64,000 bases of DNA, taken from positions 112,808-176,807 of IMG/VR virus record IMGVR_UViG_3300032285_004073, one strand, 5' to 3'. Numbering within the stretch: position 1 is the first letter of the stretch; every line of letters begins with the position of its first letter. This document shows positions 3,909 to 51,577 of the stretch, piece after piece. This stretch comes from a virus. Both the position numbers and the translations under genes were made by a program. The notes beneath the pieces are model-generated. The model did no database searches. It was not told the origin of the DNA and saw nothing but the letters and a program-made list of their open reading frames with translations.

Positions 3909-5387
3909 ATGAACAATGTCAAACCAGCCCCTGGTTTCATCGATCGCTCTCGCGCCACTCAACTCTTAGAGAAGTGGGCCCCTGTTCTTGATTATTCAAG
4001 TGACAAGGTTTCCCCAATCCAAGATGAGCATGCCCGTCTTTCAACAGCAATGTTGATGGAAAACCAAGAGCGTTGGTGCTTAGAGGAAGGTAGTGCTAAT
4101 TCTTATGGTGGCAGTGCCTTTGGCTCTGTCCCAGCAGGAGCTAACATCTACAATCCAGCTAATACCCAATATGCTTCTAGTGATAATTATGCGCAGAATG
4201 ATGCTCGCTTACCAAAGGTATTAATCCCAATGGTTCGCCGTACATTCCCAGAACTTATCACTAATGAGATCGTCGGTGTACAACCAATGAGTGGCCCAGT
4301 CGGACTTGCGTTCGCATTACGTTATCGCTATGAGGCAGATAGTTTAGGCTCAACGGGAGTTGATGGCTGGACCAGTGGTGTTTCACAAACCAGCAACACA
4401 GGCATCAGTCGTACAGGTGCAAACCCAACGACAGATGGCTCAGAACTTGGCTATAACTATCTTGATACTCGCTTTACTGGTACTTCAGCTGCCGCCCTTA
4501 CAGGTAACACGGATTTTTACTTCCCTGATTCCGATAAAGGTGTCGCTGCATTACTCAGTCAATTCGAGTTATCTGGAAACATTCCACAGGTCACTGTAGA
4601 GTTCAGTAAGACAGCAGTTGAAGCCGGCACACGCCGTCTCGCAGCTCGCTGGTCTGTTGAGCTCGAGCAGGATCTTAAGAACATGAACGGTCTCGATATC
4701 GACTCTGAATTAACAAATGCCATGAGCTATGAAATTCAAGCCGAAATCGATCGTGAAATGGTCATCAGAATGATCCAGACCTGTCTCAATGCCGGTTCTA
4801 CAAATGGATATAGCTTCTGGTACGCTGCTTCAGCCGACGCTCGTTGGCTCGGAGAGCGTAATCGTGACTTCTACAGCAAGGTAATCGTACAAGCCAATCG
4901 TATTGCTATCCGCAATCGTCGTGGTAGCGCTAATTTCATTATCGCTACACCTAAGGTTTGTGCTATCCTTGAGATGTTACCCGAGTTCCAGTGGATGCCT
5001 GTAAATGGCAACATCAACACCCAACCAACTGGCATTGCCAAGGTTGGCACACTTGGTGGCCGTTTCAACGTCTACCGTGATACTCGTACAGATGCTCAAT
5101 TCCTCGCAGGACAACGCAGTGCAGCTCAAGCTATTGACTATGCCCTCTTAGGCTACAAAGGCACAGAGTACTACGATACAGGTATCGTATACTGCCCATA
5201 TATCCCTGTCATGATTCAACGTACAATCGGGCCTAATGACTTCTCACCTCGCGTGGGACTCATGACCCGTTACGGTGTCGTAGATTATATCTTCGGTGCT
5301 AGCTTGTACTATCACGTAATCATCGTTAGCGGATTGGGTACCTCTTTTGCCGGCGGAGCCAATGGCCAGAGTACAATTTACATCTAA
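3909..5387 (+). CDS. gp23: Major capsid protein, T4 gp23-like
   Basis: LLEKWAP.L, ENQE, LIPMVRRTFPELI..EIVGVQPMSGP.GL.FALR, W..EL.QDL, EI.AEIDRE, YCPYIP, F.PR.G.MTRYG. Confidence 0.98.
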   Translation: MNNVKPAPGFIDRSRATQLLEKWAPVLDYSSDKVSPIQDEHARLSTAMLMENQERWCLEEGSANSYGGSAFGSVPAGANIYNPANTQYASSDNYAQNDARLPKVLIPMVRRTFPELITNEIVGVQPMSGPVGLAFALRYRYEADSLGSTGVDGWTSGVSQTSNTGISRTGANPTTDGSELGYNYLDTRFTGTSAAALTGNTDFYFPDSDKGVAALLSQFELSGNIPQVTVEFSKTAVEAGTRRLAARWSVELEQDLKNMNGLDIDSELTNAMSYEIQAEIDREMVIRMIQTCLNAGSTNGYSFWYAASADARWLGERNRDFYSKVIVQANRIAIRNRRGSANFIIATPKVCAILEMLPEFQWMPVNGNINTQPTGIAKVGTLGGRFNVYRDTRTDAQFLAGQRSAAQAIDYALLGYKGTEYYDTGIVYCPYIPVMIQRTIGPNDFSPRVGLMTRYGVVDYIFGASLYYHVIIVSGLGTSFAGGANGQSTIYI

Positions 5388-8119: not shown

Positions 8120-9057
8120 TGACAAATCATTACGAAAAACTTTGGGTTGAGAAATATCGTCCTAAAACATTAAAGGATATTATTCTCTCAGAAGAGAATA
8201 GAAAGCATTTTGAAACCCTCGGAGAAGATACTCCTAATATTCTTTTCCACGGTTCGCCAGGAACTGGCAAAAGTACTTTAGCAAAAATTATTGTTAATGA
8301 CATTCTTAAATGCCAATATCTTTATATTAATGCTTCGGATGAAAGTGGAATTGATACTATTAGAAACAAAGTCATTAGTTTTGCCCAGACACGTTCAGTA
8401 GATGGTAAGAAAAAAGTAGTAATATTAGAAGAAGCAGATGGTCTTACAGGAGATGCATTACGCATTCTTCGCAATGTTATGGAAGAATATGTCGACACTA
8501 CTCGTTTTATTCTTACAGCTAATTATCTTAATAAGATAATAGAACCTATTAGATCCCGTTGTTTGCTTTTCAAATTACAACCCGATGTTTTAGACTGCGT
8601 ATCAAGAGTAGTTGATATTATCAAAGCAGAAAATATAACACTAGACGCTAGTGTTAAGTCTAAATTAGTAGAATGGACAAGTAATAGATATCCAGATCTT
8701 AGAAGAATTATTAATGATCTTCAAAAATGTTCCGTCACAGGAACCTTAACATTCTCAGAAGAAAATTTAGTGTCAGATCTCGCTGGGTTTATTATAAAGG
8801 GATTGACAACTGCTAAGATATCAGCTTTAGATCTCAGGAAGAAAGTTATTGAATCTGAAAAAACGTTTAATAATGATTACCAAACACTTTTAAAACAAAT
8901 ATTTGATTATATCTATGATTCTGATTTACCAGAGAAGGAAAAGAAAATACTCCTCGTAGACACTGGAGAATATCTTTATAGAGATAACTTTGTTCTAGAC
9001 CATGAAATTAATTTCTTTTGTTGTCTTCTTGCTATGGAAGCTTCTTTAAGAAATTAA
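8116..9057 (+). CDS. gp44: Sliding clamp loader ATPase subunit, T4 gp44/RFC-like
   Basis: WVEKYRP, GSPGTGKST, NASDESGIDTIR, (E)EAD, SRC motifs. Confidence 0.95.
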   Translation: MMTNHYEKLWVEKYRPKTLKDIILSEENRKHFETLGEDTPNILFHGSPGTGKSTLAKIIVNDILKCQYLYINASDESGIDTIRNKVISFAQTRSVDGKKKVVILEEADGLTGDALRILRNVMEEYVDTTRFILTANYLNKIIEPIRSRCLLFKLQPDVLDCVSRVVDIIKAENITLDASVKSKLVEWTSNRYPDLRRIINDLQKCSVTGTLTFSEENLVSDLAGFIIKGLTTAKISALDLRKKVIESEKTFNNDYQTLLKQIFDYIYDSDLPEKEKKILLVDTGEYLYRDNFVLDHEINFFCCLLAMEASLRN

Positions 9058-9617
9058 GCGTAACGTTTTTCAAATGCTCCAGAAGCTGGAATAGAAGTAT
9101 TTTTAGTAGGTAAAGATTGATCTTTCGGTCTATTGCCTAAAGCCCCAAAATCATTTTTTAATTCCTCCGGTTTAGACCCAATGGGTTGTTCATATTTATT
9201 AGGAACACCTTGGACCGGTGGTAAATTATTACCAAAACGCAATACTTCAATATATTTTAAATCTCCAGGAACCTCAAATTCATTAAATTCTGTAGGATAT
9301 TGAACAGTTCGAGGATCACATTTTAAAACTAATACAACATTATTAGAACCGGCAATACTATTTGCATCTTTAGCATTAGCATTATTGGAATTGCCATTTA
9401 CTTCACTAATAAAGAAAAAGGTATCAGGGTTTTGTTGTAAAATGTTTTGAATCCAAGAATGGAACAATTCATCTGTTTCATATCTTTGTTTATAGAAATC
9501 AGACTTAAAAAACTCTGGTCTGAGTTTTACTGGTGTTCCGGTGCGAAAACCTCCGTTTGTATAGTGGGCAAAGGCTCTTTCACATAAGGTTTCGAATTTA
9601 TTGAATTTTTGACTCAT
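9054..9617 (-). CDS. Hypothetical late protein
   Basis: 187-aa ORF divergent from gp25, sharing the palindromic late motif. Confidence 0.65.
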   Translation of the reverse strand: MSQKFNKFETLCERAFAHYTNGGFRTGTPVKLRPEFFKSDFYKQRYETDELFHSWIQNILQQNPDTFFFISEVNGNSNNANAKDANSIAGSNNVVLVLKCDPRTVQYPTEFNEFEVPGDLKYIEVLRFGNNLPPVQGVPNKYEQPIGSKPEELKNDFGALGNRPKDQSLPTKNTSIPASGAFEKRYA

Positions 9618-9636
9618 AGATATTGTATGTTAGACC

Positions 9637-9646
9637 TAAATATTTA
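9637..9646. promoter_or_regulatory. Palindromic TAAATATTTA: bidirectional late promoter candidate
   Basis: Perfect palindrome giving TAAATA on both strands in the 37-bp gap between divergent genes. Confidence 0.55.
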
Positions 9647-9654
9647 CCTCCGAC

Positions 9655-10161
9655 ATGGCAACTATTCACATAGATAATTTAATTAACCCTCGTCAAGTTA
9701 ATTCAAAGGCTACAGTTTTGACTCAACCTAATAAACCAACTGTAGCTGTTTATACAGATTTACACTTAGATTTATCCGAAATTTATAATATTGGAATAGG
9801 AACAAATCCACAAAAATCTAATGATATTAAAGTAGATAATGATGCAGCTGCTATAAAAAATTCTTTATATAATATTTTTACAACTATTCCCGGACAAAAA
9901 ATATTAAATCCTTCTTTTGGTTGTAATCTTAATCAATTTGTATTTGAAGAAGTATCTGAAATTAAAGGTAAAATAATAGGTGATACTATTTTAAATGCTA
10001 TTAATGTCTATGAACCCAGAGTTCAAGTCCTAAATATACAAGTATATCCTTTACCAGATCAACTGATGTATTACATTATTATGTCATATCAAATGGTTGG
10101 GATAGCTAGCACATTTTCAACGCAAATACAAATATTTCCAAATAATATCTTAATAGTATGA
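9655..10161 (+). CDS. gp25: Baseplate wedge subunit, gp25-like
   Basis: D..AIKNSL.NI..T.PG....NP.FG..L....FE......I...I..YEPRV. Confidence 0.9.
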   Translation: MATIHIDNLINPRQVNSKATVLTQPNKPTVAVYTDLHLDLSEIYNIGIGTNPQKSNDIKVDNDAAAIKNSLYNIFTTIPGQKILNPSFGCNLNQFVFEEVSEIKGKIIGDTILNAINVYEPRVQVLNIQVYPLPDQLMYYIIMSYQMVGIASTFSTQIQIFPNNILIV

Positions 10162-11957
10162 GTAACATCCCTTCCACACCAAATGATTATGTAGCCTTTG
10201 ATGCTACTAATATTAGCGATTTAATAATCAATCGTTTAAATCAAGGTCAGGTATTCACTGATCAAAATTATCAGGGATCTAATATGTCTGCTATTATAGA
10301 CATTATTAGTTATTCTTTTAGTACCTTATTATTTTATCTTAATAAAACAGCTTCAGAAAGTCTTTTTTCAGAAGCTCAGGTGTATGAAAACATGAATAGA
10401 ATTGTTAAACTTTTAAATTATAATCCTCTTGGTAGAATTACACAAAACGTACCTTATACTTTAAACTCTTCATCTTCCTTACCAGCTGGGAACTATATAA
10501 TCCCTCGTTACAGTTATATAAAAGTAGGAGCTGATACGTATTCATTTAATACAGACATAGCTTTTACAAATTCAGCAAACGGAGTAATTGAATTACAAAA
10601 TGTAAATTCTGATTTTTTCCTTTACCAAGGCCAATTTCAAGAATATCCTATATATTCGGCTCAAGGAATTAATAATGAAATACTTTATATTAGCTTGGGA
10701 TCTGACACTTATGTAGACCATTTTAATTTATTTGTTTATGTTAAAGATGTAAACACCGGATTATGGACTCAATGGAAACAAACTCCTAATTTATTTTTAA
10801 ATAAATCCACAGATAAAAATTATGAAATAAGATTTAATGCAAATAAAAATTATGAAATTAAATTTGGTGATAATATTAACGGATCAGCATTAAATGATGG
10901 CGACAAAGTCTTGGTATATTATTTAAATATAAATCCAAACGCTACAGCATTAGCAGCCAATACATTAAACAAATTACCAATTGCTCTCTATAATAGTGTA
11001 AATTACAATCAAATTTTAAATAACACTATTTCTAACCCAACATATATAATACCTCAAAATTATTTAAAATATGTAACTATTAATAATGATTATCCTTCTA
11101 ATCCTTATTCTGAAGAGGAAAGCGTTGATAGCATAAGAAATAACGCACCTAAAAATTTTAGTTTCCAACAAAGATTGGTCACAGCTAATGATTTTCAATC
11201 GTATATAAATTCAAATTATGCTCATTTATTTGCCAATAGTTCCGTAGTTAATAATGACGATTATTTAAGTGGCCATATAAAATATCTATATAACATAGGT
11301 ATAGATTCTCCGCAATCTGATAATAATATTTTATACAGCCAAATTAAATTTGCGAATAGTTGCAATTTTAATAATGTATACGTTTATCTTGTTCCTAAAA
11401 ATTCCACACAACAATACGTAGCAGCTTCGCAAAAGGAATTTATAATATCTGAACTACAAGAAAAAAAGGTTTTAACATCAGAAGTTGTGATTATAGATCC
11501 GGTTTATATGGCTTTAGATTTCTATGCCAAATCACCTTATTCTAAACCTTCAACTAATGACATTAATAATAGTAAACTTTTAATTTACAAACAATCTCAT
11601 AGTAGAAGATCTCCAGCTGGGATTCAAGCTGATGTAATAGCTTTAATTAAAAAGACATTTAATAATCAGACATCGACATTAGGTCAAATGATTGATTTGC
11701 ATAAATTGACAAATGATATTTTAAATATTGATGGAGTAGATCATATTCAAACATATAGAAGTGATACAGATTCTTATGCAGAAGGTATTTCCCTTTTAGT
11801 TTGGAATAATTCTTATCCTCAATTAGACGTTTATACAACATCTCAAAATATACAATTACAATACTTTCAATTTCCAGTATTTAATAACATAAACAATTTA
11901 ATTAATAGAATTCAAATTGTTGATAACAGTGGTGTAATTCAAGTTTCGGATTACTAA
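10158..11957 (+). CDS. gp6: Baseplate wedge subunit, gp6-like
   Basis: FTD.NY.GSN.S.IID..SY, ESLF..A, Y.I.FGD...G, ES.DSIR.NAP..F..Q.R.VT..D. Confidence 0.9.
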   Translation: MSNIPSTPNDYVAFDATNISDLIINRLNQGQVFTDQNYQGSNMSAIIDIISYSFSTLLFYLNKTASESLFSEAQVYENMNRIVKLLNYNPLGRITQNVPYTLNSSSSLPAGNYIIPRYSYIKVGADTYSFNTDIAFTNSANGVIELQNVNSDFFLYQGQFQEYPIYSAQGINNEILYISLGSDTYVDHFNLFVYVKDVNTGLWTQWKQTPNLFLNKSTDKNYEIRFNANKNYEIKFGDNINGSALNDGDKVLVYYLNINPNATALAANTLNKLPIALYNSVNYNQILNNTISNPTYIIPQNYLKYVTINNDYPSNPYSEEESVDSIRNNAPKNFSFQQRLVTANDFQSYINSNYAHLFANSSVVNNDDYLSGHIKYLYNIGIDSPQSDNNILYSQIKFANSCNFNNVYVYLVPKNSTQQYVAASQKEFIISELQEKKVLTSEVVIIDPVYMALDFYAKSPYSKPSTNDINNSKLLIYKQSHSRRSPAGIQADVIALIKKTFNNQTSTLGQMIDLHKLTNDILNIDGVDHIQTYRSDTDSYAEGISLLVWNNSYPQLDVYTTSQNIQLQYFQFPVFNNINNLINRIQIVDNSGVIQVSDY

Positions 11958-11962
11958 AATAG

Positions 11963-14900
11963 ATGCAAGCTACTCAGGATCCATTAATATTAAACGAATC
12001 AATTTATTTTGATTATTCCCCTCCTCCTACTTTTTCTGGGCATTATAATAGGCATCCTTTTAGAATTCACATAACATCTTCTCATAGCGATCAACATATT
12101 ATTTCTTTAGATGCAAAATATTCAAGATCTTACAACCCTCAACCTAATCCTAATAAATGGTCTTTTTTAAGACCTGAATATAGATTTTTAGATTTAAGTG
12201 GCAATAAAATTAATTACATAACCACTCAAGATACACCATTTTATATTGGTTCAGACGGTAATTTAAATAATGTTAGCGGAACCTTTATTGGTGTTAGTGG
12301 GTTTGCGGAATTTTATTTTATAGATGATATTTATAATTTTGACTTAGCCATAAACAATCAACCTTATACTACTATTATAGCTACTCTACAAACAAGTGGT
12401 ATAAATTATTTTTTCAATAACAATGAATATATTTCTACCTCATATGCCAATAGTTTAGCAACAGCATATCAACCTCATATTTTTTATTATCGAAATCCAG
12501 ATTATATAAAAATATCAGAAAATGGCGGTAGAGATTTTATTAACCCAAGATGGTCTGCCACAACACAACCAATTGTGTTTACTCTTAATTGGAATGGAAA
12601 TTATATCTACAATGATGTAAACATACCAACCTATAATGAACCTTATAATTTTTGTCATTATTTCCCCAATTCTCAAAATCAACAAATACAAATTAAAGCT
12701 AATACAGTTGGCGTAAGTTCCAATTTTAATGATAATCTAGTAATATCCTATAGTAATAAAGATGGTTATCGTTCTCAGAGTTATTGTAAGACATATTTTA
12801 ATATACCCAATAGTCAAACATCTCTCGGAGCTTATATTACAGCATCTGTTAATTTTGATTCTGGTCTAGATTTTACTGGAAATGCGTTTAGTCCCAAGAT
12901 TTGGATATCAAATCCTAATGCTGGTACAGTGACTATTGCTGAGTATAATGACCCTAGCATTTTTAATACTACAGATCCTAACTTTACATCGACTCAATTT
13001 AAAAATTTTAATGTACCTATTGTTATAAATCCAGATTATACCAAAGATAATTTTTCCACAATAGGATTTCATGGCATTAATAGTATAGCAGTTTTACCTC
13101 CTCCGGATTTTAAAGCATGGGCTTGTGACGGTGAATTAAATTACCTTTACAAATTTTCCACAGAGGGAAGTATAATTTCTGCAATTGATATTAACCAAAT
13201 AGTAAAAACACAAAAATTAGGTTTCTTTGTAGAAAATCAAGTTTCTCCAGCTTCTATTACATTAGATAGCAATCTTAATATTTGGATGACTTTATATGAT
13301 ACAGCATCTGTTTTAAAATTAGATCCTAATGGAAATTTCTTATTTGCTTTAAACCCATTATCATCCATCAATTATACACTTCCTCCTAATATAAATTATA
13401 ATTGGTATCTCTACAATGAAATGCAGCCATTATCTGGTGAGGTGCAAAACTTTATTGAACCTACCTATGTTGAAACAGATTTAAACAATAATATCTGGGT
13501 AACATATTCCAATTACGCTAGTGGATTTTTAATAAAATATGATACCAATGGCAATTTACTTAAAACTATTAGTTATCCAGTTCTTTCAAGTCCACAAGAT
13601 TTAGTAGTAGATAATGCAAATAATGTATGGGTTGCATTATCTAATAACTCTGGTGACACTTTAGGCACTTTGGAAAAAAGAAATTCCTTTGGAGTATTAC
13701 TAAGCTCCTTTGGAAATATTACTGGATTGAATAATTTGACTTTAGATTTAAATCAAAATATTTGGTTCACATATTCATATTCTAGAATAGCAACTATAGA
13801 TAATAACACCGCAAATATAACAACAATTAATGTATCAGATTATGATAATACACCTTTAGTAATTCCGAGAGACAACAATTCTCAAATATTTTATTCCTCA
13901 TCACCTCAGACCAAAATAGTATCCAATAGTATTAGTAACATCAACAGAATTATTTATAGCCTTTCAGATGTACCTGCAACAACACCAAGTGGAACTATTG
14001 CCAATTCCTCTTATACAACAGCTAGCCAACAAATTTTAGCAGCAAAGGCTCAGATTCAGCAAGCAGTTATTAACTATGCGGTGACTAATTACCCAAATGC
14101 CATGAGTAATAATCCAACTCTTACAGCGTATTGCTACAGAGATACTGGATTTATAGTAGATGCATTAGCTGCGGACATAGCCAATAATACAAATCATCGA
14201 TCAATTGAAGTGGGTAATTTTTACTACAAAGGTGTAACAAAAAATGTTAATGTACCTTATGGACAATTAATTCTGCCTTCTTACGAATTATCAGCAACAA
14301 TAAATTCTATTAATTACATTGCATCTTATATTAATTCCAATGTAGTTACAGATACTTCTAGAAAAACTGATGTGACATCACGTATGGCTGATGTAGTATA
14401 CCCTCTTCAAACCGGAGGAGCTTTAAAGGCATATTCTCCTGCTGGATCACCTACTACAGACGATATTAATATAGCCAATCTTATAGCTGCTAATAGATCT
14501 GCCCTTCAAGATAAAGTTTCTTATTATGTAATACAAAAGGGATATTTGTTTGATAGTGCTCTTTTACAAATTTGTAAAAGAGATGTTGGGTTGATTGTAG
14601 ATGCTATATACAATGATCTAGTATCCGGAGTCAATGCTAGGTCTATAGAATACGGCTTGGCATATTGGAATGGAAGCACTACAAGATTGCCAGACAGTCT
14701 TGTACCTAATCATAAAGAAAAAACAACAGATACATTTAATTATCTTAACACTTGTATTAAAGATCTTTTAGTTGCTAATGGGTATTTACAAGACACAACA
14801 CCTTCTCCTTACAATATATATGCAGATAAAGGATTAACTGTACCAGATGAATATACATCAGAAACAGCTTTGGAAGGTATAGCTGCCGATTATAAGGGCA

Positions 14901-15952
14901 ATATATATGTTATAAATTCTGTTGAAAATCAAGTATATATGTTTAATTCAACAACTAAGAATTTTACAAATAAATTTTATATTAATCCTCAAGGATTTAA
15001 TTTCTTCTACCAGAACAATATTAATAGCATAGATTATAATGTTTGGACTAAATCAGCTCAAGCTTATGGTGACTGGACTGGGTTTAGATGGATTAATAAA
15101 TATTATAAATATCAAAACTCAAGAATAATATCTTTAACTGGAAGATCTACTAATTTAGATTTTTACGGAAATCATGCGTTTGATGTTTTTAAAGTTAATG
15201 AAAATTTTGACATGGCTGGTCAAATGAAATCTTTAGCTTTTATGCCGGTTTTACAAGATAGCCCAGTTTTCTTTGATAATTTCTTAGGATCTATTTTCGG
15301 TAAAGCTCCTTTTAATCATAATGATCTAGGAATAGAAAGTTATGAAAAGATTGCAAATTTCTTACCCAATAATGTAGATATAGACACTTGTGGTATAGAC
15401 GAACTTTACAACTTAGCCAATTCAGTAAATCAACATGATGGTGATGACTTTACTTTAACCTATCCAAATGAAATTAAAAGATTAATGAATTTAGCTTCCA
15501 TAAATCAATCTATACTTTGGGGTACAACTTCCAAAAATCAAAATTACTTTAAGTCTCCGTCCACAGATGGAGTCTTGAATAGGGGTAAATTGTTAACTAA
15601 CAATTACACAGTTTCTGCTGGAACTCCTGTAATATTAAATACTAGATCACTTAACAGTTATGATCTAATACCCACAGGACCTATCAACGGTTCAACCAAT
15701 TATCCCTTATCTACATTAATTTCTTACATAGGTTTAGATCCACTTAATTGGGAAACATATTACAACATATATGAATTTATACCTGGATTTAGTAAAACGC
15801 TAACTGAAGGTATTATAGATTGGAATAATCCTCAAACAACCATTACTCAAAGTCAATCTTCTCATTATAATTGGGTTGGAAATGAACAAACGTTAGATAA
15901 ATTATTTTCATATAATTTATATAACGGATTAGGATTACTAAAGAATTATTAA
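11963..15952 (+). CDS. Large baseplate wedge protein (gp7-like position): beta-propeller repeats, two inserted phycobiliprotein-like domains, C-terminal wedge-like domain
   Basis: Follows gp6; repeats such as ITLDSNLNIWMT, VETDLNNNIWVT, LVVDNANNVWVA, IAADYKGNIYVI; CYRD and CKRD repeats; C-terminal FLG.IFG...YEKIANF...DIDTC.ID.L. Confidence 0.75.
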   Translation: MQATQDPLILNESIYFDYSPPPTFSGHYNRHPFRIHITSSHSDQHIISLDAKYSRSYNPQPNPNKWSFLRPEYRFLDLSGNKINYITTQDTPFYIGSDGNLNNVSGTFIGVSGFAEFYFIDDIYNFDLAINNQPYTTIIATLQTSGINYFFNNNEYISTSYANSLATAYQPHIFYYRNPDYIKISENGGRDFINPRWSATTQPIVFTLNWNGNYIYNDVNIPTYNEPYNFCHYFPNSQNQQIQIKANTVGVSSNFNDNLVISYSNKDGYRSQSYCKTYFNIPNSQTSLGAYITASVNFDSGLDFTGNAFSPKIWISNPNAGTVTIAEYNDPSIFNTTDPNFTSTQFKNFNVPIVINPDYTKDNFSTIGFHGINSIAVLPPPDFKAWACDGELNYLYKFSTEGSIISAIDINQIVKTQKLGFFVENQVSPASITLDSNLNIWMTLYDTASVLKLDPNGNFLFALNPLSSINYTLPPNINYNWYLYNEMQPLSGEVQNFIEPTYVETDLNNNIWVTYSNYASGFLIKYDTNGNLLKTISYPVLSSPQDLVVDNANNVWVALSNNSGDTLGTLEKRNSFGVLLSSFGNITGLNNLTLDLNQNIWFTYSYSRIATIDNNTANITTINVSDYDNTPLVIPRDNNSQIFYSSSPQTKIVSNSISNINRIIYSLSDVPATTPSGTIANSSYTTASQQILAAKAQIQQAVINYAVTNYPNAMSNNPTLTAYCYRDTGFIVDALAADIANNTNHRSIEVGNFYYKGVTKNVNVPYGQLILPSYELSATINSINYIASYINSNVVTDTSRKTDVTSRMADVVYPLQTGGALKAYSPAGSPTTDDINIANLIAANRSALQDKVSYYVIQKGYLFDSALLQICKRDVGLIVDAIYNDLVSGVNARSIEYGLAYWNGSTTRLPDSLVPNHKEKTTDTFNYLNTCIKDLLVANGYLQDTTPSPYNIYADKGLTVPDEYTSETALEGIAADYKGNIYVINSVENQVYMFNSTTKNFTNKFYINPQGFNFFYQNNINSIDYNVWTKSAQAYGDWTGFRWINKYYKYQNSRIISLTGRSTNLDFYGNHAFDVFKVNENFDMAGQMKSLAFMPVLQDSPVFFDNFLGSIFGKAPFNHNDLGIESYEKIANFLPNNVDIDTCGIDELYNLANSVNQHDGDDFTLTYPNEIKRLMNLASINQSILWGTTSKNQNYFKSPSTDGVLNRGKLLTNNYTVSAGTPVILNTRSLNSYDLIPTGPINGSTNYPLSTLISYIGLDPLNWETYYNIYEFIPGFSKTLTEGIIDWNNPQTTITQSQSSHYNWVGNEQTLDKLFSYNLYNGLGLLKNY
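14012..14770 (+). other. Two tandem phycobiliprotein(globin)-like domains inside the baseplate protein
   Basis: YCYRDTGFIVDALAADIANNTNHRSIEV (Cys724) and ICKRDVGLIVDAIYNDLVSGVNARSIEY (Cys871) align by eye with alpha-phycocyanin KCARDIGYYLR.VTYCLVAGGTGPLDEY, with flanking helices in register. Confidence 0.6.
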
Positions 15953-15982: not shown

Positions 15983-18900
15983 ATGAGTTTTACTCCCACA
16001 TTAGCATATAATATACAAGGATCTGGAAACTACCCCTCAGAGAACTATATAAGTTATCCTTTACAGTCTTATTTTATAGCTAATTTAGGACCTTTAAAAT
16101 TTTATAACGGTTTAAAATATAGAAAAAAACCTTACAGTGATGTAGCTAACTTTTATTTAAACTCTCCTATTTTTAATTCTTTTTTTACTTATAGTAATGC
16201 TGTTACATCACAATATTCGGATATTACAGATCCGACCCAAGCCAATATTTTAGTAGAATCTTATAATACCATAGATTTTGGTGATTGGATATCCACACCT
16301 TCTATAACTTTAAATACATCTAACATAAGAAAAACTTACAACATTCCTTCAGAATTTAATTTATTTTATACTACTTTAAATCAAAATACGGATTTAAGTT
16401 ATGGATATTTATTATATCCTAGCAAATTATTTTTAAATCCAGTTAGCTTAACACAAAACGGAAATAACTGGAATTTAACCACAAATATTAATGTAGCATT
16501 ATCTTCGGTTATTGGAATAGAATCAAATTACATAGAACAAGACGCCGCGGATTATCATATAAACACCTATTTAAAAAATACACCCACTTTATTATCATTA
16601 GGATCCGCCGGTCTCAATAGTTCTTATAGTTTATTTTTTGACCTTTGTGCTAATCGTACTCGTACACATAGGCCTATTATTAATTTTACACAAGGATATA
16701 AACCAACATATTTTACTTCTATATTAGAACCTAATTCTATATTGAATCCCGACTCTTTAGTTGTGACATTTAGTGCTGCATGTTCTAATCCCACTTTTAG
16801 TATTACAGAACAAATTATATCTCAAGATGAACCAGATGTTTGGAAATATGATGAAACTACACATTTTAATAATACTTTTGTAATTTTATCATCATATGAT
16901 ATTAAAACAAAATCACCAGTACAAACATTTCAATTATATCAAACAATTACACCAGGAGGTGCAAATTATCCTTTAATTGACAGTAAAAATTGTGTTTTAA
17001 GTGCAACTTTATTTTTAAACAATTCTAATATTAGATATTCTAATCCTCTTTCCAAGAGCACTTACAACGTACATCATACAACGGATTCTATTTTAGGGAT
17101 TAGTTATATAGCAGATTGTGGATTATTTAAAAATAATGACCCTATTAGTGGTTCTCTTACAATCAATAGTAGTCCAGCAAGTTTTAAAACATCTGTACCT
17201 ATTAATAACGTAGCTAGTAATCAAACAATTGTTTGGACTACTCCGTATCCTCCTCATTATTATTCTTATAAAACAAAATTAGCAAATTCAGGCGCTTATT
17301 TAGATTCTAATTCTTTAAATTTTTATCTTTATTCTTCTAATGTACCTACATCAGATAATAACTATAATACTAATCAAAGCAGTTATTATGTTTTATTATC
17401 ATCCTATATTACATCGGATCATAATATTCTTAGTTACAGTTTAGACGCCGTCCCAAACGATCTTATTAGATTTCTTCCTGTTAATTTAGATCCTTTAATA
17501 GCCCCTAATTTAGTTTGTTCTTATGGACCATATACTTCGTTAGTAGCTGGTTCTGCTATACAGACATACAACTTAATTAATTCTCCGTGGGTACCGGTAT
17601 CTGCTGGTGATTGTTTGCGCATAGATTACCCTTATGGTATGTACGGACAAACACCTCTCAGTATAAGGTCATCTCTTTCTTCTAAGGTTGCGGGTCAATT
17701 AGATGCTTTTAATGCAACTAATTTTGTGTTGGCGCCAGATTATCAACAAAATAACGGATTTGCAATAGATTTACAAGTATTGAGTGAAGATTATAATCAA
17801 ATAACATTGAGTGTTTCTAATAATGTTTCTTTAAGCAGTTGGCCTTATATAGATTTGACATATAAAAATATATGTTGGTATTACACAAGTGATGATGTTT
17901 TACCTGATTTAAACATATCTTTAAATATAGCAGACTCAACTGGAAATATTCTCAGTTCTATACAACCTTATCAAGTAATACCTTTTAATAATTTAACATG
18001 GAATGTTAATATTTCTGGATATGGTCCCAATACTTTGACTATATACGTTTCATCTTCAGATGAAACAATAACTCAACCCTCATTTATTGATACTAATCCA
18101 TCACTATTTTCATATTTTGTAGAAAGACAATTTGCTGTAACACCTTTAATTGAATTGGATAACTTGAATATAGACAGAACAATTTCTTTACAAGCACAAT
18201 TACCAATTAACAATACTATAGTCAATATACCATCAGCTTACCAAGATTCCGCTATGTATTGGACTTGGTCTTTTGATGACATAACAGATCCCTCTTTACA
18301 ACCTATATCTGCCAATTACAATGTTTTAAGTTCAGACAATGTTACAATTATATCCAAAGATTATACACATTCAACACCTGGACCTATATCATTGTTAAGT
18401 TCTATAAATTTAGTAATAACACCTCCTCAAGGCAGTAGAGCACAAAATTTACACAATATAAAAGTTGTAGCCCATTCTGATATAATGAACCCTTCGGTTA
18501 TAGGATCCTACAGCTTCACTGTAGATGATTTTCCAAGTACAGATATTTTTAATGCAGATTTTACAACAAGATATAACAATGCTGAAGCAATTGTTTTAGG
18601 GAATACATCTTCCGGACATAATACGATAACTAGAAAGGGCAATGCATCACCTGGAACTAATTTATATTTTAAATTAATACCGTCAGACGTAGCTTCTAAT
18701 TTAGCAAATAATAATGGAGAATTAACTTGGTATTACAATAATCTAGCTATAGATTCAAATTCTGATAATAGTCTTAATTTTGATTTAAGTCTTAGTGCCA
18801 CACCTACAATTCAAAACAATATTTCAGCTGCATCCATTGCCTTAAAATTAACAAATTCTTTTGCTAATGGGTGGACTAGTGCTCATAATGTAAGCGCTAT

Positions 18901-20527
18901 AACATATTTTTATGCAGTTGATCCCATCGATTTTACAACACCTTTAGAATTTAATGTATTTCCACAATTTGGATGGATAGGTAATGATAATCAACTAACT
19001 ATCCTTGACGAGAATAACTATACTTTAATCAATAATCCATCAGCTTATGATAATACTGTAGGACAAACACAAAGTCTTTATTTATCTGCCAATAAAAATT
19101 ATTTTACAAAATACAATTATCAAAGTCAAACAAGCCCAGAAATAATAACCCTACCTTCTTATTTCGGATTAACAAATATAGGATATACACCAAGATCCTT
19201 AGAAGTATTTAATTACGGATTAATGATAGGACTTACGGCTTTTAATAATGATGTTTATCCGGAAATAATGGGTGTAAATTATTATGATCTTGTTAATATA
19301 AATAATGGTTATAATGTAATTGTTAACCAATTTAATATTACATCCCAAACTTTATCCGCCAAAAGCTTTTATACATCAAATTATATATACGATGAATATA
19401 ATAATCTCTATAATTCCATATTTGGCAATCTTTCTTCACTTTTAGTATATTGGAAACTAAATGAAGAAAGCGGTAATCGCTACGATTCAACTCCAAATGG
19501 ATACACTTTAATAGATGTAAATCCGTTTACTCCGTCCGGACAAGGTTTAATAGATAAAGGAATTATAGGAGATGGTTCTGGTTATTTAACTACTGCAAAC
19601 ACCATACCTCTTAGCGGTGATTTTACAATTAATTATTGGGTGAAACCAGAAAAAAATACAACTGGTAATTTCCAATGTTTTGCTGGTTCTGATAATGAAT
19701 TAAATTTTAATGTTCATTCTCGAGGTATATATTATGGTACCTGTAACAATTTTGTGAAAGCTTCTAAATTTATTGAAGTATCAAATGATTGGCATATGGC
19801 TACTCTCACCAGATCCATATCATCTGGTTTAGCAAATATATATTTAGACGGAAATTTAGTGGCAACAAACACATCTGATTTTACAGATTATACAGCTTAT
19901 TTTGGATTGTTGGCCACGTATGACGGTCAGTATGTAGACTCTGCCAATAATTCAATGTTGGATGAATTTAGTATATATAATCAGGTTATTAATATAAATC
20001 AAATATCAAATTTATATAATTATGGTTTAGGCATCACCTACCCATTAACAGATGATAATAGTTATACAACCTTATTAAATTTATCTTCTCTTATATCTCG
20101 CAATAATAACGGCAACAAATTCTTATGTGCTCCTGTTATTGTACCTTATAATGATTTGTATTTTTCATTTACGGTTAAAAATCTTTCCTTGGATCTTAAT
20201 AAAGAAAATACTATTTCAGTCACTCAAACCACTAAATCTAATGGTCCAGCGGTTATAGTCGGTGGGTCTATAACCTATTATCTTTCTAGTCAATATTGGG
20301 TTGAATCTAACACCATACCCTATGCTGATGGCACCTATGATATATTCAATATTACCTTAGGTGATCCTTTTATACCATTACAAAGTGGAGCTGAAGGTTT
20401 AGATAATTTTTATTTATATGCTATCCCTGATTTTTATCAACAGATACCACCTAGTGTTTTTGATTTAGCAAAAATAAATCAAGGATATAAAGGAAATACA
20501 AATATTTGGAGTTTAATAAATCCATGA
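15983..20527 (+). CDS. Large virion structural protein with a LamG/concanavalin-like domain (~19440-20030)
   Basis: LLVYWKLNE.SG...D, FTINYWVK, WHMATLT, IYLDG, LDEFSIYN motifs; Asn/Ser/Thr-rich beta protein in the baseplate operon. Confidence 0.7.
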   Translation: MSFTPTLAYNIQGSGNYPSENYISYPLQSYFIANLGPLKFYNGLKYRKKPYSDVANFYLNSPIFNSFFTYSNAVTSQYSDITDPTQANILVESYNTIDFGDWISTPSITLNTSNIRKTYNIPSEFNLFYTTLNQNTDLSYGYLLYPSKLFLNPVSLTQNGNNWNLTTNINVALSSVIGIESNYIEQDAADYHINTYLKNTPTLLSLGSAGLNSSYSLFFDLCANRTRTHRPIINFTQGYKPTYFTSILEPNSILNPDSLVVTFSAACSNPTFSITEQIISQDEPDVWKYDETTHFNNTFVILSSYDIKTKSPVQTFQLYQTITPGGANYPLIDSKNCVLSATLFLNNSNIRYSNPLSKSTYNVHHTTDSILGISYIADCGLFKNNDPISGSLTINSSPASFKTSVPINNVASNQTIVWTTPYPPHYYSYKTKLANSGAYLDSNSLNFYLYSSNVPTSDNNYNTNQSSYYVLLSSYITSDHNILSYSLDAVPNDLIRFLPVNLDPLIAPNLVCSYGPYTSLVAGSAIQTYNLINSPWVPVSAGDCLRIDYPYGMYGQTPLSIRSSLSSKVAGQLDAFNATNFVLAPDYQQNNGFAIDLQVLSEDYNQITLSVSNNVSLSSWPYIDLTYKNICWYYTSDDVLPDLNISLNIADSTGNILSSIQPYQVIPFNNLTWNVNISGYGPNTLTIYVSSSDETITQPSFIDTNPSLFSYFVERQFAVTPLIELDNLNIDRTISLQAQLPINNTIVNIPSAYQDSAMYWTWSFDDITDPSLQPISANYNVLSSDNVTIISKDYTHSTPGPISLLSSINLVITPPQGSRAQNLHNIKVVAHSDIMNPSVIGSYSFTVDDFPSTDIFNADFTTRYNNAEAIVLGNTSSGHNTITRKGNASPGTNLYFKLIPSDVASNLANNNGELTWYYNNLAIDSNSDNSLNFDLSLSATPTIQNNISAASIALKLTNSFANGWTSAHNVSAITYFYAVDPIDFTTPLEFNVFPQFGWIGNDNQLTILDENNYTLINNPSAYDNTVGQTQSLYLSANKNYFTKYNYQSQTSPEIITLPSYFGLTNIGYTPRSLEVFNYGLMIGLTAFNNDVYPEIMGVNYYDLVNINNGYNVIVNQFNITSQTLSAKSFYTSNYIYDEYNNLYNSIFGNLSSLLVYWKLNEESGNRYDSTPNGYTLIDVNPFTPSGQGLIDKGIIGDGSGYLTTANTIPLSGDFTINYWVKPEKNTTGNFQCFAGSDNELNFNVHSRGIYYGTCNNFVKASKFIEVSNDWHMATLTRSISSGLANIYLDGNLVATNTSDFTDYTAYFGLLATYDGQYVDSANNSMLDEFSIYNQVININQISNLYNYGLGITYPLTDDNSYTTLLNLSSLISRNNNGNKFLCAPVIVPYNDLYFSFTVKNLSLDLNKENTISVTQTTKSNGPAVIVGGSITYYLSSQYWVESNTIPYADGTYDIFNITLGDPFIPLQSGAEGLDNFYLYAIPDFYQQIPPSVFDLAKINQGYKGNTNIWSLINP

Positions 20528-22536
20528 GCGTTTATACATCACCAGCAATTCAATTAACAACATATGCAGACCAAACTACGCAGATATATATGTCTACTGT
20601 TTATGCATTAGTAAGTTCTCAAGTTTTTGTAGAATATAAAAATCCATTTTTAAACAACAACAATCCCAGTTCTTATGTGTTACAATATATTACAGATTTT
20701 GGAGAAGGAGATGTAATTTACTCCGACCCCTCAGACAAGGTATATTATAGTTATAAGAATCCAGGAACTTATTATGTATCATATTCTGCCGTATTATATT
20801 CTAACACGGACAACACAACTTCCATTACACCTGCAAATTCGTTAGTACCATTTGTAATAGAAGCCTCCTGGAAACCTTTTAATGCCAATGAAATAAGATA
20901 TGCCAAAGATCTTATATTAAAATTTCCTTATAATTTAAATCAAATACAAATACAGCCTAATGAATGGGGTGTCAAAGATATTTTTAATACTGCTATAACT
21001 CGTTTACAAGATAATTTAAATTATTTATTATATAACACTAAAACTTTAAACACAAACACTCCAACAGAATATATTGGTTGGTTAGGAAACAATTCCAATA
21101 GTAGAGGAAGTGGTATAAAATGGAACACACAAACATATAACCCTCTCTATTTAAACAACGCATCGTTAGCAACCACACAAGGATCTTCTTATTTTAATAA
21201 TTTAAAAGACAGTGTAGAAATTTTAGATCGTATTTATGTGCTGGACGATACAAGTTTTAGAGCCTTTTATTCTTCAGCTGTACCAACAGAAATAAAATTT
21301 TCTAATACTCAACAAATAGCCTCACTATTAGTAAATCCTTCATCATTAGATTCTAATGACTCCGGTGACACGGTTTATATATCGGATCCCCTAAAGAATA
21401 TAGTATATAAATTCAACATAGATATTACTAATAATGAAATTAACGTACAATTATTTACAGGAGGTTTTGGCGGAGTTGCAGATCATGATAAATTTAATTC
21501 CCCGGTTCAAGTATATTATTTTAAAGAAAATGTATACGTTTTAGATTATAACAACAAATGTGTTAAACAATACAATAAAGATTTAAACTGGATATATACC
21601 TATTATTGTGACGCATTTGAATCAGACCAACCAGCAAGTGTTACAGTCAATCCATCAACATCGGATGTTTATATTTTAAGTGAATCAGCTAATGTGTATA
21701 TATTTAAAAATTTAAATAGCAATCCATACAATTCATTTAGTGCTTTAGAAGCAAAAGACGGGACAAATTTAAACAAAATTATTTTTGATGATTCCGGGGA
21801 TTTTTTCTACATATTATCAGTTAGTAATATATACAAATATTCCTATATTAATACATTTATAAATAAACTTAATATAGAAAACAACCCTTCCATTAATTAT
21901 ATTAGCATTAATAAATCCACCAACAAATCATTTTTAATTACTAGTATTCATTCTATACTAAAAATACAAGATGTATTAGAGACATTTCAATTAGGCGGTG
22001 GATTACCTTACAATTATTGGACAAAAGAACAATTACTGGTTTCAGAAGATGAATTTTCATCCGATATTAATTATAATCGCTCTTTAATTAGAATGGCTCA
22101 AAATGTCAAAACTTTTAGAGATACACTAAATGCTCAAATGGTTTTAGTACAAGCAGATATTCCTTACATTTCTTGGGTTCCTATTGATGTTTCCAATCAA
22201 CCGCTTTTAGACTCTGATGTTGAAAACGAAACATTGGGTGTTGGTGTTAATGAATTACACGTACCCTCGGTTTTCAATAAAGAATTAGACAAAATATATA
22301 CTTCTTTATCCACTCTATTAAATTTTTTAAATATTAATAATGCTGTACCCGAATCTCAATGTTCTGGTAAATTTTGTTGGTCTTGGAAAGCATTATCAAC
22401 TTATAATATAACTTTACCTGTAGTTAGAACTTGTGATATGAATCCTACAAGCTACAAAGAATTATTAGGCGCGTTTCCTGTGGGTTATGCTCCTAGTAAA
22501 ACTTGGGGTGAAGCTATCTCAAATTGTTGTAATTAA
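20524..22536 (+). CDS. Virion structural protein with PKD-like N-terminus and NHL-type beta-propeller
   Basis: DFGEG...Y.Y..PG.Y.VS; KFNSPVQV....VYVLDYNN..VK; ATGA overlap with the upstream stop supports the 20524 start. Confidence 0.7.
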   Translation: MSVYTSPAIQLTTYADQTTQIYMSTVYALVSSQVFVEYKNPFLNNNNPSSYVLQYITDFGEGDVIYSDPSDKVYYSYKNPGTYYVSYSAVLYSNTDNTTSITPANSLVPFVIEASWKPFNANEIRYAKDLILKFPYNLNQIQIQPNEWGVKDIFNTAITRLQDNLNYLLYNTKTLNTNTPTEYIGWLGNNSNSRGSGIKWNTQTYNPLYLNNASLATTQGSSYFNNLKDSVEILDRIYVLDDTSFRAFYSSAVPTEIKFSNTQQIASLLVNPSSLDSNDSGDTVYISDPLKNIVYKFNIDITNNEINVQLFTGGFGGVADHDKFNSPVQVYYFKENVYVLDYNNKCVKQYNKDLNWIYTYYCDAFESDQPASVTVNPSTSDVYILSESANVYIFKNLNSNPYNSFSALEAKDGTNLNKIIFDDSGDFFYILSVSNIYKYSYINTFINKLNIENNPSINYISINKSTNKSFLITSIHSILKIQDVLETFQLGGGLPYNYWTKEQLLVSEDEFSSDINYNRSLIRMAQNVKTFRDTLNAQMVLVQADIPYISWVPIDVSNQPLLDSDVENETLGVGVNELHVPSVFNKELDKIYTSLSTLLNFLNINNAVPESQCSGKFCWSWKALSTYNITLPVVRTCDMNPTSYKELLGAFPVGYAPSKTWGEAISNCCN

Positions 22537-22551
22537 AGGGACAATTTCTGG

Positions 22552-22615
22552 TAAATATTATTAATCAATTCAACAATAGTGACCAGCAATGGTTCTATGG
22601 GGCAACCCATTGGCT
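22552..22615 (+). promoter_or_regulatory. Late promoter plus structured 5' leader (two GCAA tetraloop hairpins)
   Basis: TAAATA 22552-57; GACCA-GCAA-TGGTT 22581-94; ATGGG-GCAA-CCCAT 22597-610. Confidence 0.5.
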
Positions 22616-22627
22616 TGAGAAAGGATT

Positions 22628-51004: not shown

Positions 51005-51577
51005 ATGAATGATAAAAATTTACAACAACGCTTAAAAGAAGAGACTGCAGAGTTACATCGTGAGTCGGAACAACACCCTTTGATGCAATCATTTGTAACA
51101 GGTTCTTTTAAAAAAGAACACCTACTGGATGTATTAATTAATCTCCTTCCTATCTATCAGGTTGTAGAACAACGACTTATCTCTAAAGAAATTATTAACA
51201 ATCCAGAACTCAAGAGAAGTATTAATATTCAAAAAGATATTGATAAACTTGTGCAAGACATAGGTTTAGGTAATCGACAAGTAAGAAAGATTACATCACA
51301 TTGGTTATCTTTTTCTTGGTCTAGAAAATTAGATCTCTTAAAGGGTGATCTCTATCTCAGATGGTTGGCAGATTTCTATGGAGGAAGAATTCTTGCCAAG
51401 TCTCAAGCACCCTATAATGAAACATATGCTTCAGAAAACCCAGGTGCAGTTATTACTACAGTAAGATATATTTTAGATCAAACCTCAAATGATACTACAG
51501 ACGACGAAATTGTAGAGCATACTAAGGGATTTTTTAAATTTCATATTCAGTTATTTGAAGATATATGGACCAATTAA
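51005..51577 (+). CDS. ho1: Heme oxygenase (Ho1/HemO-like)
   Basis: LKEETAELH18RESE (proximal His helix); LYLRWLADFYGGRIL matches HAYTRYLGDLSGGQIL; F...I.LFE. Confidence 0.9.
   Translation: MNDKNLQQRLKEETAELHRESEQHPLMQSFVTGSFKKEHLLDVLINLLPIYQVVEQRLISKEIINNPELKRSINIQKDIDKLVQDIGLGNRQVRKITSHWLSFSWSRKLDLLKGDLYLRWLADFYGGRILAKSQAPYNETYASENPGAVITTVRYILDQTSNDTTDDEIVEHTKGFFKFHIQLFEDIWTN

What the first reader, a model, noticed from the sequence alone, without database searches (positions are those of the whole stretch)
14012..14770. Phycobiliprotein-like domains with intact bilin-attachment CxRD motif inside a baseplate protein: candidate bilin-pigmented virion system
Seen: a ~300-aa helical insert interrupts the beta-propeller of the gp7-position protein and holds two repeats. 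Repeat 1 is TASQQILAAKAQIQQAVINYAVTNYP...YC724YRDTGFIVDALAADIANNTNHRSIEV...ATINSINYI. Repeat 2 is IANLIAANRSALQDKVSYY...IC871KRDVGLIVDAIYNDLVSGVNARSIEY...TTDTFNYL. Established: alpha-phycocyanin reads AAKALTDNAQSL...KFP...KC84ARDIGYYLR.VTYCLVAGGTGPLDEY...WYVEALKYI, where Cys84 binds the bilin covalently and Arg86/Asp87 contact it. Both repeats keep C-x-R-D-x-G, and repeat 2 also keeps LVxG......EY. Inference: these are globin-fold bilin-binding domains displayed on the virion. The same window encodes heme oxygenase plus a bilin reductase (51005-52209), which would supply the chromophore. This would give a role to phage bilin cassettes outside host photosynthesis: light sensing, timing of adsorption, photoprotection or antioxidant shielding. 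I recall similar C.RD.G..VDA repeats in large T4-like cyanophage virion proteins but cannot verify that here.
Basis: partly seen in the sequence, partly recalled or inferred. Interest (0 to 1): 0.92.

Follow-up and report, generated by a model that had tools for sequence, protein, structure and literature searches.

The report
Phycobiliprotein-like domains in phage baseplate
A baseplate protein of an uncultured T4-like phage carries two inserted domains that are true relatives of the pigment-holding phycobiliproteins and keep their pigment-attachment residues, in a genome that also makes bilin pigment, so the virus particle may carry pigment, but nobody has tested this.

Summary
ORF 11963-15952 (1329 aa) sits in the gp7 position after gp25- and gp6-like genes. 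Residues about 634-962 are a clean insertion that orthologues in two related phages lack. The insert holds two homologous ~125-aa helical repeats with C724-x-R-D-x-G and C871-x-R-D-x-G.

These repeats are real phycobiliprotein (PBP) relatives:
- Relatives pass Pfam PF00502.
- A 121-repeat profile hits phycocyanin alpha in the PDB, with the Cys on Cys84.
- hhalign against CpcA/CpcB gives 91% probability.
- AlphaFold models (pLDDT 88) match PBPs best (Z 16.7, 1.9 A).

The repeat belongs to a large, apparently phage-only family: 1646 clusters, with up to 37 copies per giant fibre protein. C, R and D are 94-98% conserved. It occurs in 13 of 14 cultured cyanomyoviruses tested.

Heme oxygenase and a bilin reductase are confirmed at 51005-52209. 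The genome as held shows no psbA, CpeT or CpeS.

Bilin binding is plausible, about 50%, but unproven. Co-occurrence with bilin genes is mixed: P-SSM2 and Pelagibacter phage Mosig have the cassette but no repeats.

I found no paper describing this. The scan had already noted the same repeat family on other DNA.

The parts
11963..15952 (+). gp7-position baseplate-module protein (1329 aa): a beta-propeller protein carrying the insert
   Evidence: The ORF is. It follows the gp25-like and gp6-like genes. NHL/SGL/SBBP/Vgb_lyase propeller signatures lie at residues 386-652 and 972-983. Orthologues in G055, G066, G061 and G065 also sit next to gp6.
13862..14848 (+). Inserted helical module (residues 634-962) holding both phycobiliprotein-like repeats and their linker helices
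   Evidence: It is absent from orthologues L215:3636-7226:- and L216:4175-7390:-. The AlphaFold2 model has pLDDT 88.3, pTM 0.85 and is all-helical. Best structural match is 8or7_A, Z 15.3.
14006..14410 (+). Repeat 1 (residues 682-816, subtype A), motif Y-C724-Y-R-D-T-G; the Cys codon is at 14132-14134
   Evidence: HMM domain score 121.5 bits. AF2 pLDDT 88.8, pTM 0.83. Foldseek and VIA top hits are all phycobiliproteins. phmmer top PDB hit is far-red allophycocyanin, aligned at C-x-R-D.
14456..14827 (+). Repeat 2 (residues 832-955, subtype B), motif I-C871-K-R-D-V-G; the Cys codon is at 14573-14575
   Evidence: HMM domain score 111.5 bits. Homologous to repeat 1. Matches phrog_4527 'short tail fiber protein' at residues 836-935.
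51005..51577 (+). Heme oxygenase (190 aa)
   Evidence: Pfam PF01126, E 1.7e-12. It overlaps the next gene by 13 nt, the same arrangement as in Pelagibacter phage Mosig.
51565..52209 (+). Ferredoxin-dependent bilin reductase (214 aa), divergent
   Evidence: Pfam PF05996, E 6.3e-22. At most 30% identical to cyanophage PcyA. The best full-length match among cultured phages is the Mosig FDBR.
9655..11957 (+). gp25-like and gp6-like baseplate wedge genes, which set the context
   Evidence: phrog_261/43 for 9655-10161. phrog_219, E 2.7e-34, for 10158-11957.

Best explanation
Shown: the gp7-position baseplate protein has acquired a ~330-aa module made of two phycobiliprotein-fold (bilin-binding globin) domains. 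Each domain is the globin core without the N-terminal X-Y hairpin. Each keeps the attachment-type Cys and the Arg-Asp pair (C-x-R-D-x-G) at the position of the light-harvesting Cys84 site. The domain belongs to a very large, apparently phage-restricted repeat family of giant fibre and baseplate proteins.

Inferred: each domain binds one linear tetrapyrrole in the phycobiliprotein manner. The Cys would form the thioether, the Asp would contact the pyrrole nitrogens and the Arg a propionate. Attachment would probably be without a lyase, as in BBAG-1/3 and ApcE. Loading would happen in the infected cell, with a bilin made by the phage's own heme oxygenase and bilin reductase. The assembled baseplate would then carry pigment.

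Most speculative: the pigment serves as a light sensor or gate for adsorption, rather than for light harvesting.
For: Homology:
- PF00502 is passed by relatives.
- Profile against PDB sequences, E 0.0032, with Cys on Cys84.
- hhalign against CpcA/CpcB, probability 91%, E 1.1e-6 over PBP residues 38-143.
- AF2 pLDDT 88-89.
- All top Foldseek hits are PBPs.
- VIA Z 16.7, rmsd 1.9 A.

Constraint on the motif:
- In 457 repeat copies averaging ~24% identity, C is 94%, R 97%, D 98% and G 92% conserved.
- 355 of 457 copies have exactly one Cys, and it is this one.
- C, R and D are all present in 429 of 457 copies.

Precedent: CXRD marks PBPs and the self-assembling BBAG-1/3, while BV-specific BBAG-2 lacks it (PMC10151467).

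Bilin supply:
- HO and FDBR are in the same genome.
- No psbA, CpeT or CpeS was found in the 82% of the genome held.
- Every repeat-bearing genome of at least 82% estimated completeness that I checked either has its own FDBR (G000, G011, G065) or is a psbA-carrying or cultured cyanophage.
- Three complete relatives without an FDBR have no repeats (G055, G063, G067).

Modularity: the array is inserted at a different site of the orthologous protein in G065.
Against: - No chromophore has been observed, and I know of no report of pigmented cyanophage virions.
- Pocket geometry could not be inspected.
- The window repeats alone do not reach Pfam thresholds.
- The cassette occurs without repeats in P-SSM2, in Mosig, and in G066 and G074, whose gp6 region is present.
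- The repeats occur in cyanophages without an FDBR: Syn9, S-ShM2, S-SM1, S-PM2 and DSL-LC03.
- The lineage co-occurrence is small and not corrected for relatedness. The hypergeometric p is about 0.03. A 2x2 table of better-covered genomes gives about 0.24. Both are my arithmetic.
- HO/FDBR lie 36 kb from the gene and are not adjacent to it.
- Two of the most conserved columns, Asp at C+14 and Tyr at C+30, are not classic PBP signature positions.
Confidence: 0.5

Rival explanations
1. Chromophore-free structural module. A phycobiliprotein-derived helical domain was co-opted as a rigid spacer or display unit in phage fibres and baseplates. On this view the C-x-R-D-x-G helix is kept for folding, packing or inter-domain contacts, not for ligand binding.
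For: - The domain is used as a bead-like repeat, 1 to 37 copies, in fibres of very different lengths.
- It is inserted at different sites of orthologous proteins.
- It occurs in phages regardless of FDBR.
- 16 copies have Ser in place of Cys yet keep R-D.
- Phage-specific invariant residues exist that PBPs lack.
Against: - 94-98% conservation of exactly the residues that bind bilin in PBPs, at ~24% overall identity, is hard to explain by packing alone.
- A lone, near-invariant Cys in an extracellular protein is unusual.
- BV-binding BBAG-2, which shares the fold, does without the CXRD motif (PMC10151467).
Confidence: 0.33
2. The pocket binds a different ligand, or the domain is a host-recognition module. 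Candidates are another tetrapyrrole, a host surface molecule, or a redox-active or disulfide-forming Cys. The heme oxygenase and reductase would then serve an unrelated purpose, such as iron release or host physiology.
For: - It lies in adsorption-apparatus proteins, next to LamG, VWA, pentaxin and RCC1-like adhesin-type domains.
- P-SSM2 and Mosig show that the cassette has some function independent of the repeats.
Against: - No conserved His or other heme-type ligand was seen among the conserved columns.
- The conserved set matches the PBP bilin site, not any other known ligand site.
Confidence: 0.12
3. Chance or compositional resemblance: a generic helical bundle that merely looks like a phycobiliprotein.
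For: - Helical proteins often give middling structural Z-scores (note).
- Pfam finds nothing in the window repeats alone.
Against: - Independent sequence evidence agrees with the fold evidence.
- PBPs outrank other globins (Z 16.7 against about 12).
- The motif aligns residue for residue.
Confidence: 0.02

Closest known systems
Light-harvesting phycobiliproteins (CpcA/B, ApcA/B, CpeA/B; Pfam PF00502), including the ApcE bilin-binding domain
   Same: - Same globin-type fold over PBP residues ~33-159.
- Detectable sequence homology.
- C-x-R-D-x-G (in most family copies preceded by Lys) aligned to Cys84/Arg86/Asp87; B-type copies such as repeat 2 also keep G-G/N after the helix.
- A similar 'A..NY(L/I)' helix near the C-terminus.
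   Different: - No N-terminal X-Y hairpin for alpha-beta pairing.
- Tandem domains fused inside giant virion proteins, instead of free ~160-aa subunits.
- Found in phages only, not in cells.
- Extra invariant Asp (C+14) and Tyr (C+30).
- No linker proteins.
- Bilin binding is untested.
BBAG-1/BBAG-3 bilin biosynthesis-associated globins (Rockwell, Martin and Lagarias 2023, PMC10151467)
   Same: - PBP paralogues outside photosynthesis that carry CXRD.
- They attach several bilins without a lyase.
- They are genomically linked to HO and FDBR genes in heterotrophs.
- Their function is unknown.
   Different: - BBAGs are stand-alone cellular proteins in conserved clusters with V4R and Fe-S proteins.
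- Here the domains are repeats in virion proteins, and the HO/FDBR pair lies 36 kb away.
- The phylogenetic position relative to BBAGs was not determined.
Phage bilin-biosynthesis cassettes (ho1 with pebS, pcyA or pcyX) and the phage lyase CpeT
   Same: - The window has the overlapping HO-FDBR pair seen in Pelagibacter phage Mosig.
- The purpose of such cassettes in phages of Prochlorococcus and of heterotrophs is stated as open (PMC2984593; PMC11480375).
   Different: - No published target protein in the virion.
- The cassette also occurs in phages with no repeats: P-SSM2 and Mosig.
T4 gp7 baseplate wedge protein
   Same: Same gene position after gp25 and gp6. The DSL-LC03 protein at this position is annotated 'baseplate wedge initiator' and also carries the repeat.
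   Different: No sequence similarity to gp7 families was detected. P0001 and the DSL-LC03 protein share only the PBP-like repeats.

Membership tests
Phycobiliprotein family (Pfam PF00502 Phycobilisome protein) | Sequence-profile membership | tested here: met
   The window repeats alone give no Pfam hit. Homologous repeats in P0030, P0032, P0035 and P0048 pass the gathering score at 33-41 bits against 22.2. The family profile hits phycocyanin alpha, E 0.0032. hhalign against CpcA/CpcB gives 91%, E 1.1e-6.
Phycobiliprotein family (Pfam PF00502 Phycobilisome protein) | Globin-like PBP fold | tested here: met
   AF2 pLDDT 88.8, pTM 0.83. Foldseek top hits are all PBPs, TM 0.62-0.77. VIA gives 8or7_A at Z 16.7, rmsd 1.9 A over 124 aa, above globin sensors at Z ~12.
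Phycobiliprotein family (Pfam PF00502 Phycobilisome protein) | Cys at the Cys82/84 position within C-x-R-D | tested here: met
   C724 and C871 are present and aligned to Cys84. Conservation across 457 copies is 94-98%.
Phycobiliprotein family (Pfam PF00502 Phycobilisome protein) | N-terminal X-Y helices mediating alpha-beta heterodimers and (alpha-beta)3 discs | tested here: not met
   For the single repeat, structural and profile alignments start at PBP residue ~33-38. The repeats are covalently linked in tandem instead.
Phycobiliprotein family (Pfam PF00502 Phycobilisome protein) | Covalently bound bilin chromophore | not testable with these tools
   Needs expression with HO and FDBR, or mass spectrometry of virions.
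Phycobiliprotein family (Pfam PF00502 Phycobilisome protein) | Cognate lyase (E/F, S/U or T type) in the same system | tested here: not met
   No CpeT (PF06206) or CpeS (PF09367) was found in the 82%-complete genome. E/F-type lyases were not searched. Lyase-free attachment is known for BBAGs.
BBAG-1/3 (bilin biosynthesis-associated globins) | CXRD-bearing globin genomically associated with HO or FDBR genes | tested here: inconclusive
   The same genome has HO and FDBR, but 36 kb away. Association across genomes is mixed. No phylogeny against BBAGs was made.
T4 gp7 baseplate wedge protein | Sequence homology to gp7 | tested here: inconclusive
   No gp7 family appears in the Pfam or PHROGs hits. 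Only synteny after gp25 and gp6 supports the label.

The most novel reading that the evidence does not exclude
The phycobiliprotein-like domains are bilin-loaded photoreceptors carried on the virion. Light absorbed by the fibre or baseplate pigment would gate adsorption or baseplate triggering. That would explain three things at once: light-dependent adsorption of cyanomyoviruses that does not need host photosynthesis, the unexplained bilin cassettes of phages infecting Prochlorococcus and heterotrophs, and the phage lyase CpeT.

A small lead points this way. P-HM1, P-HM2 and S-PM2 adsorb only in light and carry repeats. P-SSM2 adsorbs in the dark and is the only cultured cyanomyovirus tested without repeats (PMC6628666).
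Probability: 0.2. Interest if true: 0.95.

Novelty: new variant of a known kind. Interest (0 to 1): 0.8.

Why it matters
Phycobiliproteins are regarded as antenna proteins of cyanobacteria and algae. Here a large sister group sits in phage adsorption organelles with its pigment site under strong constraint.

If the domains bind bilin, three open questions get a concrete and cheap test:
- Why do phages of Prochlorococcus and of heterotrophs make bilins? Reviews and a 2024 paper state this is unresolved.
- What is the natural substrate of the phage CpeT?
- How can cyanophage adsorption depend on light without host photosynthesis?

This window is a good test case. The module is minimal, with two domains of 330 aa. 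The phage's own HO and FDBR are at hand. Natural orthologues exist without the insert.

Tried and rejected
Searches that found nothing or added little:
- Pfam on the insert alone: no hit.
- megablast of the region against cultured phages: no match.
- The search for related loci with the insert as a single protein: nothing.

Tools not available:
- The Jia 2010 and Gasper 2017 papers are not held.

Pattern scan of prokaryote genomes:
- 72 hits, of which 64 did not match the repeat HMM and look like chance matches (my estimate of chance hits is about 50).
- 8 were real, all low-GC contigs that I take to be misbinned phage contigs in MAGs.
- So there is no evidence for a cellular home.

Corrections and ideas dropped:
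- L004 and L111 (G044) from the viral pattern scan were also chance hits. I therefore dropped G044 as a 'repeats without bilin source' exception.
- The idea that the window is an ordinary cyanophage: rejected as unsupported. There is no psbA, and gp44 is at most 39% identical to Kyanoviridae.
- Strict co-occurrence with HO/FDBR: rejected.

Literature: eight full-text searches in all, five of them aimed at prior descriptions; none turned up a description of phycobiliprotein-like domains in phage structural proteins.
Full report
**The gene and the insert**

Window 11963-15952 (+) is one 1329-aa ORF. It follows a gp25-like wedge gene (9655-10161; phrog_261/43) and a gp6-like wedge gene (10158-11957; phrog_219, E 2.7e-34). 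It is therefore in the gp7 position of a T4-type baseplate module.

No gp7 family was detected. Against the protein at the same position in Synechococcus phage DSL-LC03, only the repeats discussed here are shared. 'gp7' is thus positional.

Weak NHL, SGL, SBBP and Vgb-lyase matches at residues 386-652 and 972-983 indicate a beta-propeller on both sides of the finding.

Orthologues next to gp6 in two related IMG/VR phages are 49% and 56% identical to the window protein. They are G055 (L215:3636-7226:-, 1196 aa) and G066 (L216:4175-7390:-, 1071 aa). Both lack residues ~634-960 cleanly.

In G065 the orthologue (P0009, 2036 aa) has six such repeats, but inserted near the C-terminus instead. The module therefore moves as a cassette.

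**The repeats**

Residues 682-816 and 832-955 are homologous to each other (E 6e-10). They carry C724-Y-R-D-T-G and C871-K-R-D-V-G.

Searching with residues 670-950 found 77 large proteins, which together hold 489 copies.

In 457 full-length copies:
- The Cys is 94% conserved, Arg 97%, Asp 98% and Gly 92%.
- A downstream Asp is 97% and a Tyr about 100% conserved.
- Mean column identity is only 24%.
- 355 copies have exactly one Cys, and it is this one.
- C, R and D are all present in 429 copies. Sixteen C-to-S copies keep R-D, and eight have lost all three.

Two subtypes alternate in the family. Subtype A resembles repeat 1 and subtype B resembles repeat 2.

**Relationship to phycobiliproteins**

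- Pfam finds nothing in the window repeats alone. Relatives pass the PF00502 gathering score, for example P0030 at 41 bits against 22.2, covering profile positions 27-140 of 155.
- phmmer of the insert against PDB sequences ranks far-red allophycocyanin first, at E 0.24.
- A profile of 121 diverse repeats (A1) returns phycobiliprotein chains, nearly all phycocyanin alpha, in 28 of 30 hits. The best is 6jpr_A, E 0.0032, with 'akCaRDvGyIvdA' on 'AKCVRDVGYYLRI'.
- hhalign of A1 against six CpcA/CpcB sequences taken from cyanobacterial plasmids (A4) gives probability 91%, E 1.1e-6. It pairs repeat columns 6-104 with PBP residues 38-143.
- AlphaFold2 of repeat 1 gives pLDDT 88.8, pTM 0.83. The whole insert gives pLDDT 88.3, pTM 0.85.
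- Foldseek's top hits are all phycobiliproteins, ApcE or smURFP, with TM 0.62-0.77.
- The Foldseek-independent search puts 8or7_A first at Z 16.7, rmsd 1.9 A over 124 residues (PBP residues 33-159). Next come ApcE and phycoerythrins at Z 13.5-14.6, photocobilins at about 13, and globin sensors at about 12.

The domain is therefore the PBP globin core without the X-Y hairpin.

Rockwell et al. 2023 note that CXRD is shared by PBPs and by the lyase-independent BBAG-1/3, and is absent from BV-specific BBAG-2 (PMC10151467).

**Distribution**

- The profile finds 1646 clusters at 50% identity among 1.84 billion representatives. Proteins reach 6382 aa with 37 copies.
Of these, 118 are true giant ORFs with 1-22 copies.
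- The same pattern in 185,579 prokaryote species genomes gave 72 hits. Only 8 were real, all on low-GC MAG contigs that I take to be misbinned phage.
- Among cultured T4-like cyanophages, the profile finds repeats in 13 of 14: S-PM2, DSL-LC03, P-HM1, P-HM2, P-SSM4, Syn9, P-RSM4, P-SSM7, P-RSM6, S-SSM4, P-TIM40, S-ShM2 and S-SM1. P-SSM2 has none.
- S-PM2 and DSL-LC03 copies carry K-C-x-R-D-x-G-Y.
- BFVD matches are annotated tail or structural proteins.

**The window's phage**

The genome is an IMG/VR record of 176.8 kb, estimated 82% complete, with only these two repeats. In the record as held it shows no psbA, CpeT or CpeS.

Its gp44 is at most 39% identical to any cultured phage. Its FDBR is at most 30% identical to cyanophage PcyA, and the best full-length match is the Pelagibacter phage Mosig enzyme. 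The overlapping HO-FDBR arrangement is the same as in Mosig.

The host is unknown and need not be a cyanobacterium.

**Does the cassette go with the repeats?**

Among 23 gp44-relatives:
- Repeats occur in G061, G065 and G068.
- FDBR occurs in G061, G065 and G066.
- The complete genomes G055, G063 and G067 have neither.

The jumbo phage G011 (328 kb, 92% complete) has 19 repeats in one ORF plus adjacent HO and FDBR, and no psbA.

Every repeat-bearing genome of at least 82% estimated completeness that I could check has either its own FDBR or psbA.

Exceptions run the other way:
- Mosig and P-SSM2 have the cassette but no repeats.
- G066 (77% complete) has an FDBR, and its gp7-position orthologue lacks the insert.
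- G074 (46% complete) has the closest FDBR and a gp6 gene but no repeats.

Inside cyanophages there is no association: 8 repeat-bearing phages have an FDBR and 5 do not.

My hand calculation for the lineage gives p about 0.03 (hypergeometric, own genome excluded). A 2x2 table of better-covered genomes gives about 0.24. Neither is corrected for relatedness or fragment size.

CpeT is present in 9 of 13 repeat-bearing cultured phages and in none without repeats. It is absent from G012 (complete), DSL-LC03, G011, G065 and the window genome.

**Interpretation**

Homology and purifying selection on the bilin-site residues are shown. Bilin binding is inferred, at about 50%. The main rival is a chromophore-free structural module, at about one third.

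A light-sensing role is a lead only. Adsorption of P-HM1, P-HM2 and S-PM2 needs light but not host photosynthesis, and tail fibres were suggested as possible sensors (PMC6628666). These three phages have repeats. P-SSM2 adsorbs in the dark and has none. That is n = 4, against a high base rate of repeats.

From my own memory, not checked here: the cyanophage CpeT binds phycoerythrobilin, but transfer to a host phycobiliprotein was not demonstrated. The paper was not available.

**Novelty**

Eight full-text searches in all, five of them aimed at prior descriptions, found no description of PBP-like domains in phage structural proteins. Two papers state that the purpose of phage bilin genes is unresolved.

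Earlier notes of this scan describe the same repeat family in at least eight other genomes. The family-level finding is therefore not unique to this window.

What this window adds:
- A minimal two-domain insert in a baseplate propeller.
- A phage-encoded HO-FDBR pair in a genome that shows neither psbA nor a CpeT/CpeS lyase in the 82% held.
- Natural orthologues with no insert, or with the array at another site.

Noticed in passing
L001 (NC_006820.1, S-PM2) 8446-13273: The RefSeq record places 16 tRNA features inside the 3779-aa giant ORF. ARAGORN finds none there. It finds a tRNA cluster upstream instead (locus 3272-5192), interleaved with cpeT. The annotated positions look like an artefact.
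   Followed up: partly
L001 3842-17157 (S-PM2): cpeT lies about 1.4 kb upstream of the giant repeat-bearing ORF. Between them are tRNAs, small ORFs and a 2OG-Fe(II) oxygenase.
   Followed up: no
L125 (Pelagibacter phage Mosig) 1590-6675: The HO-FDBR pair sits behind a ferrochelatase, endonuclease V and four 2OG-Fe(II) oxygenase genes, directly before the neck genes. This phage has no PBP-like repeat.
   Followed up: partly
window 41552-50795 (-): Two giant ORFs lie immediately upstream of the HO-FDBR pair. One is 1574 aa with a pentaxin/LamG-like end, the other 1496 aa with a VWA domain. They are probably adhesin-type virion proteins.
   Followed up: partly
window 15983-26410 (+): The baseplate module continues with three proteins: a 1514-aa protein with a Laminin_G_3 domain, a 676-aa protein of unknown family, and a 1260-aa protein with RCC1-like repeats.
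   Followed up: no
G028 (IMG/VR contig behind L069) 171043-171916: psbA is found in three pieces separated by a TGA and a TAG. This may be an intron-interrupted psbA, which from memory is known in some cyanophages.
   Followed up: no
L232, L268, L271, L276 (Rhodobacteraceae bacterium Water_Bin34): Three contigs of one MAG carry giant repeat ORFs. Their coverage differs widely (5.7x, 67x, 88x) and their GC is 37-41%. They are probably phage contigs misbinned into the MAG.
   Followed up: partly
window 53231-54040 (+): A DUF932 protein (PF06067, E 2.8e-22) lies just downstream of the bilin cassette.
   Followed up: no
IMG/VR contigs behind L003-L122: Most repeat-bearing contigs of 45-125 kb are rated only 12-36% complete. 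This implies a class of ~350-kb jumbo phages rich in these repeats. Its one near-complete member (G011) encodes HO and FDBR.
   Followed up: partly
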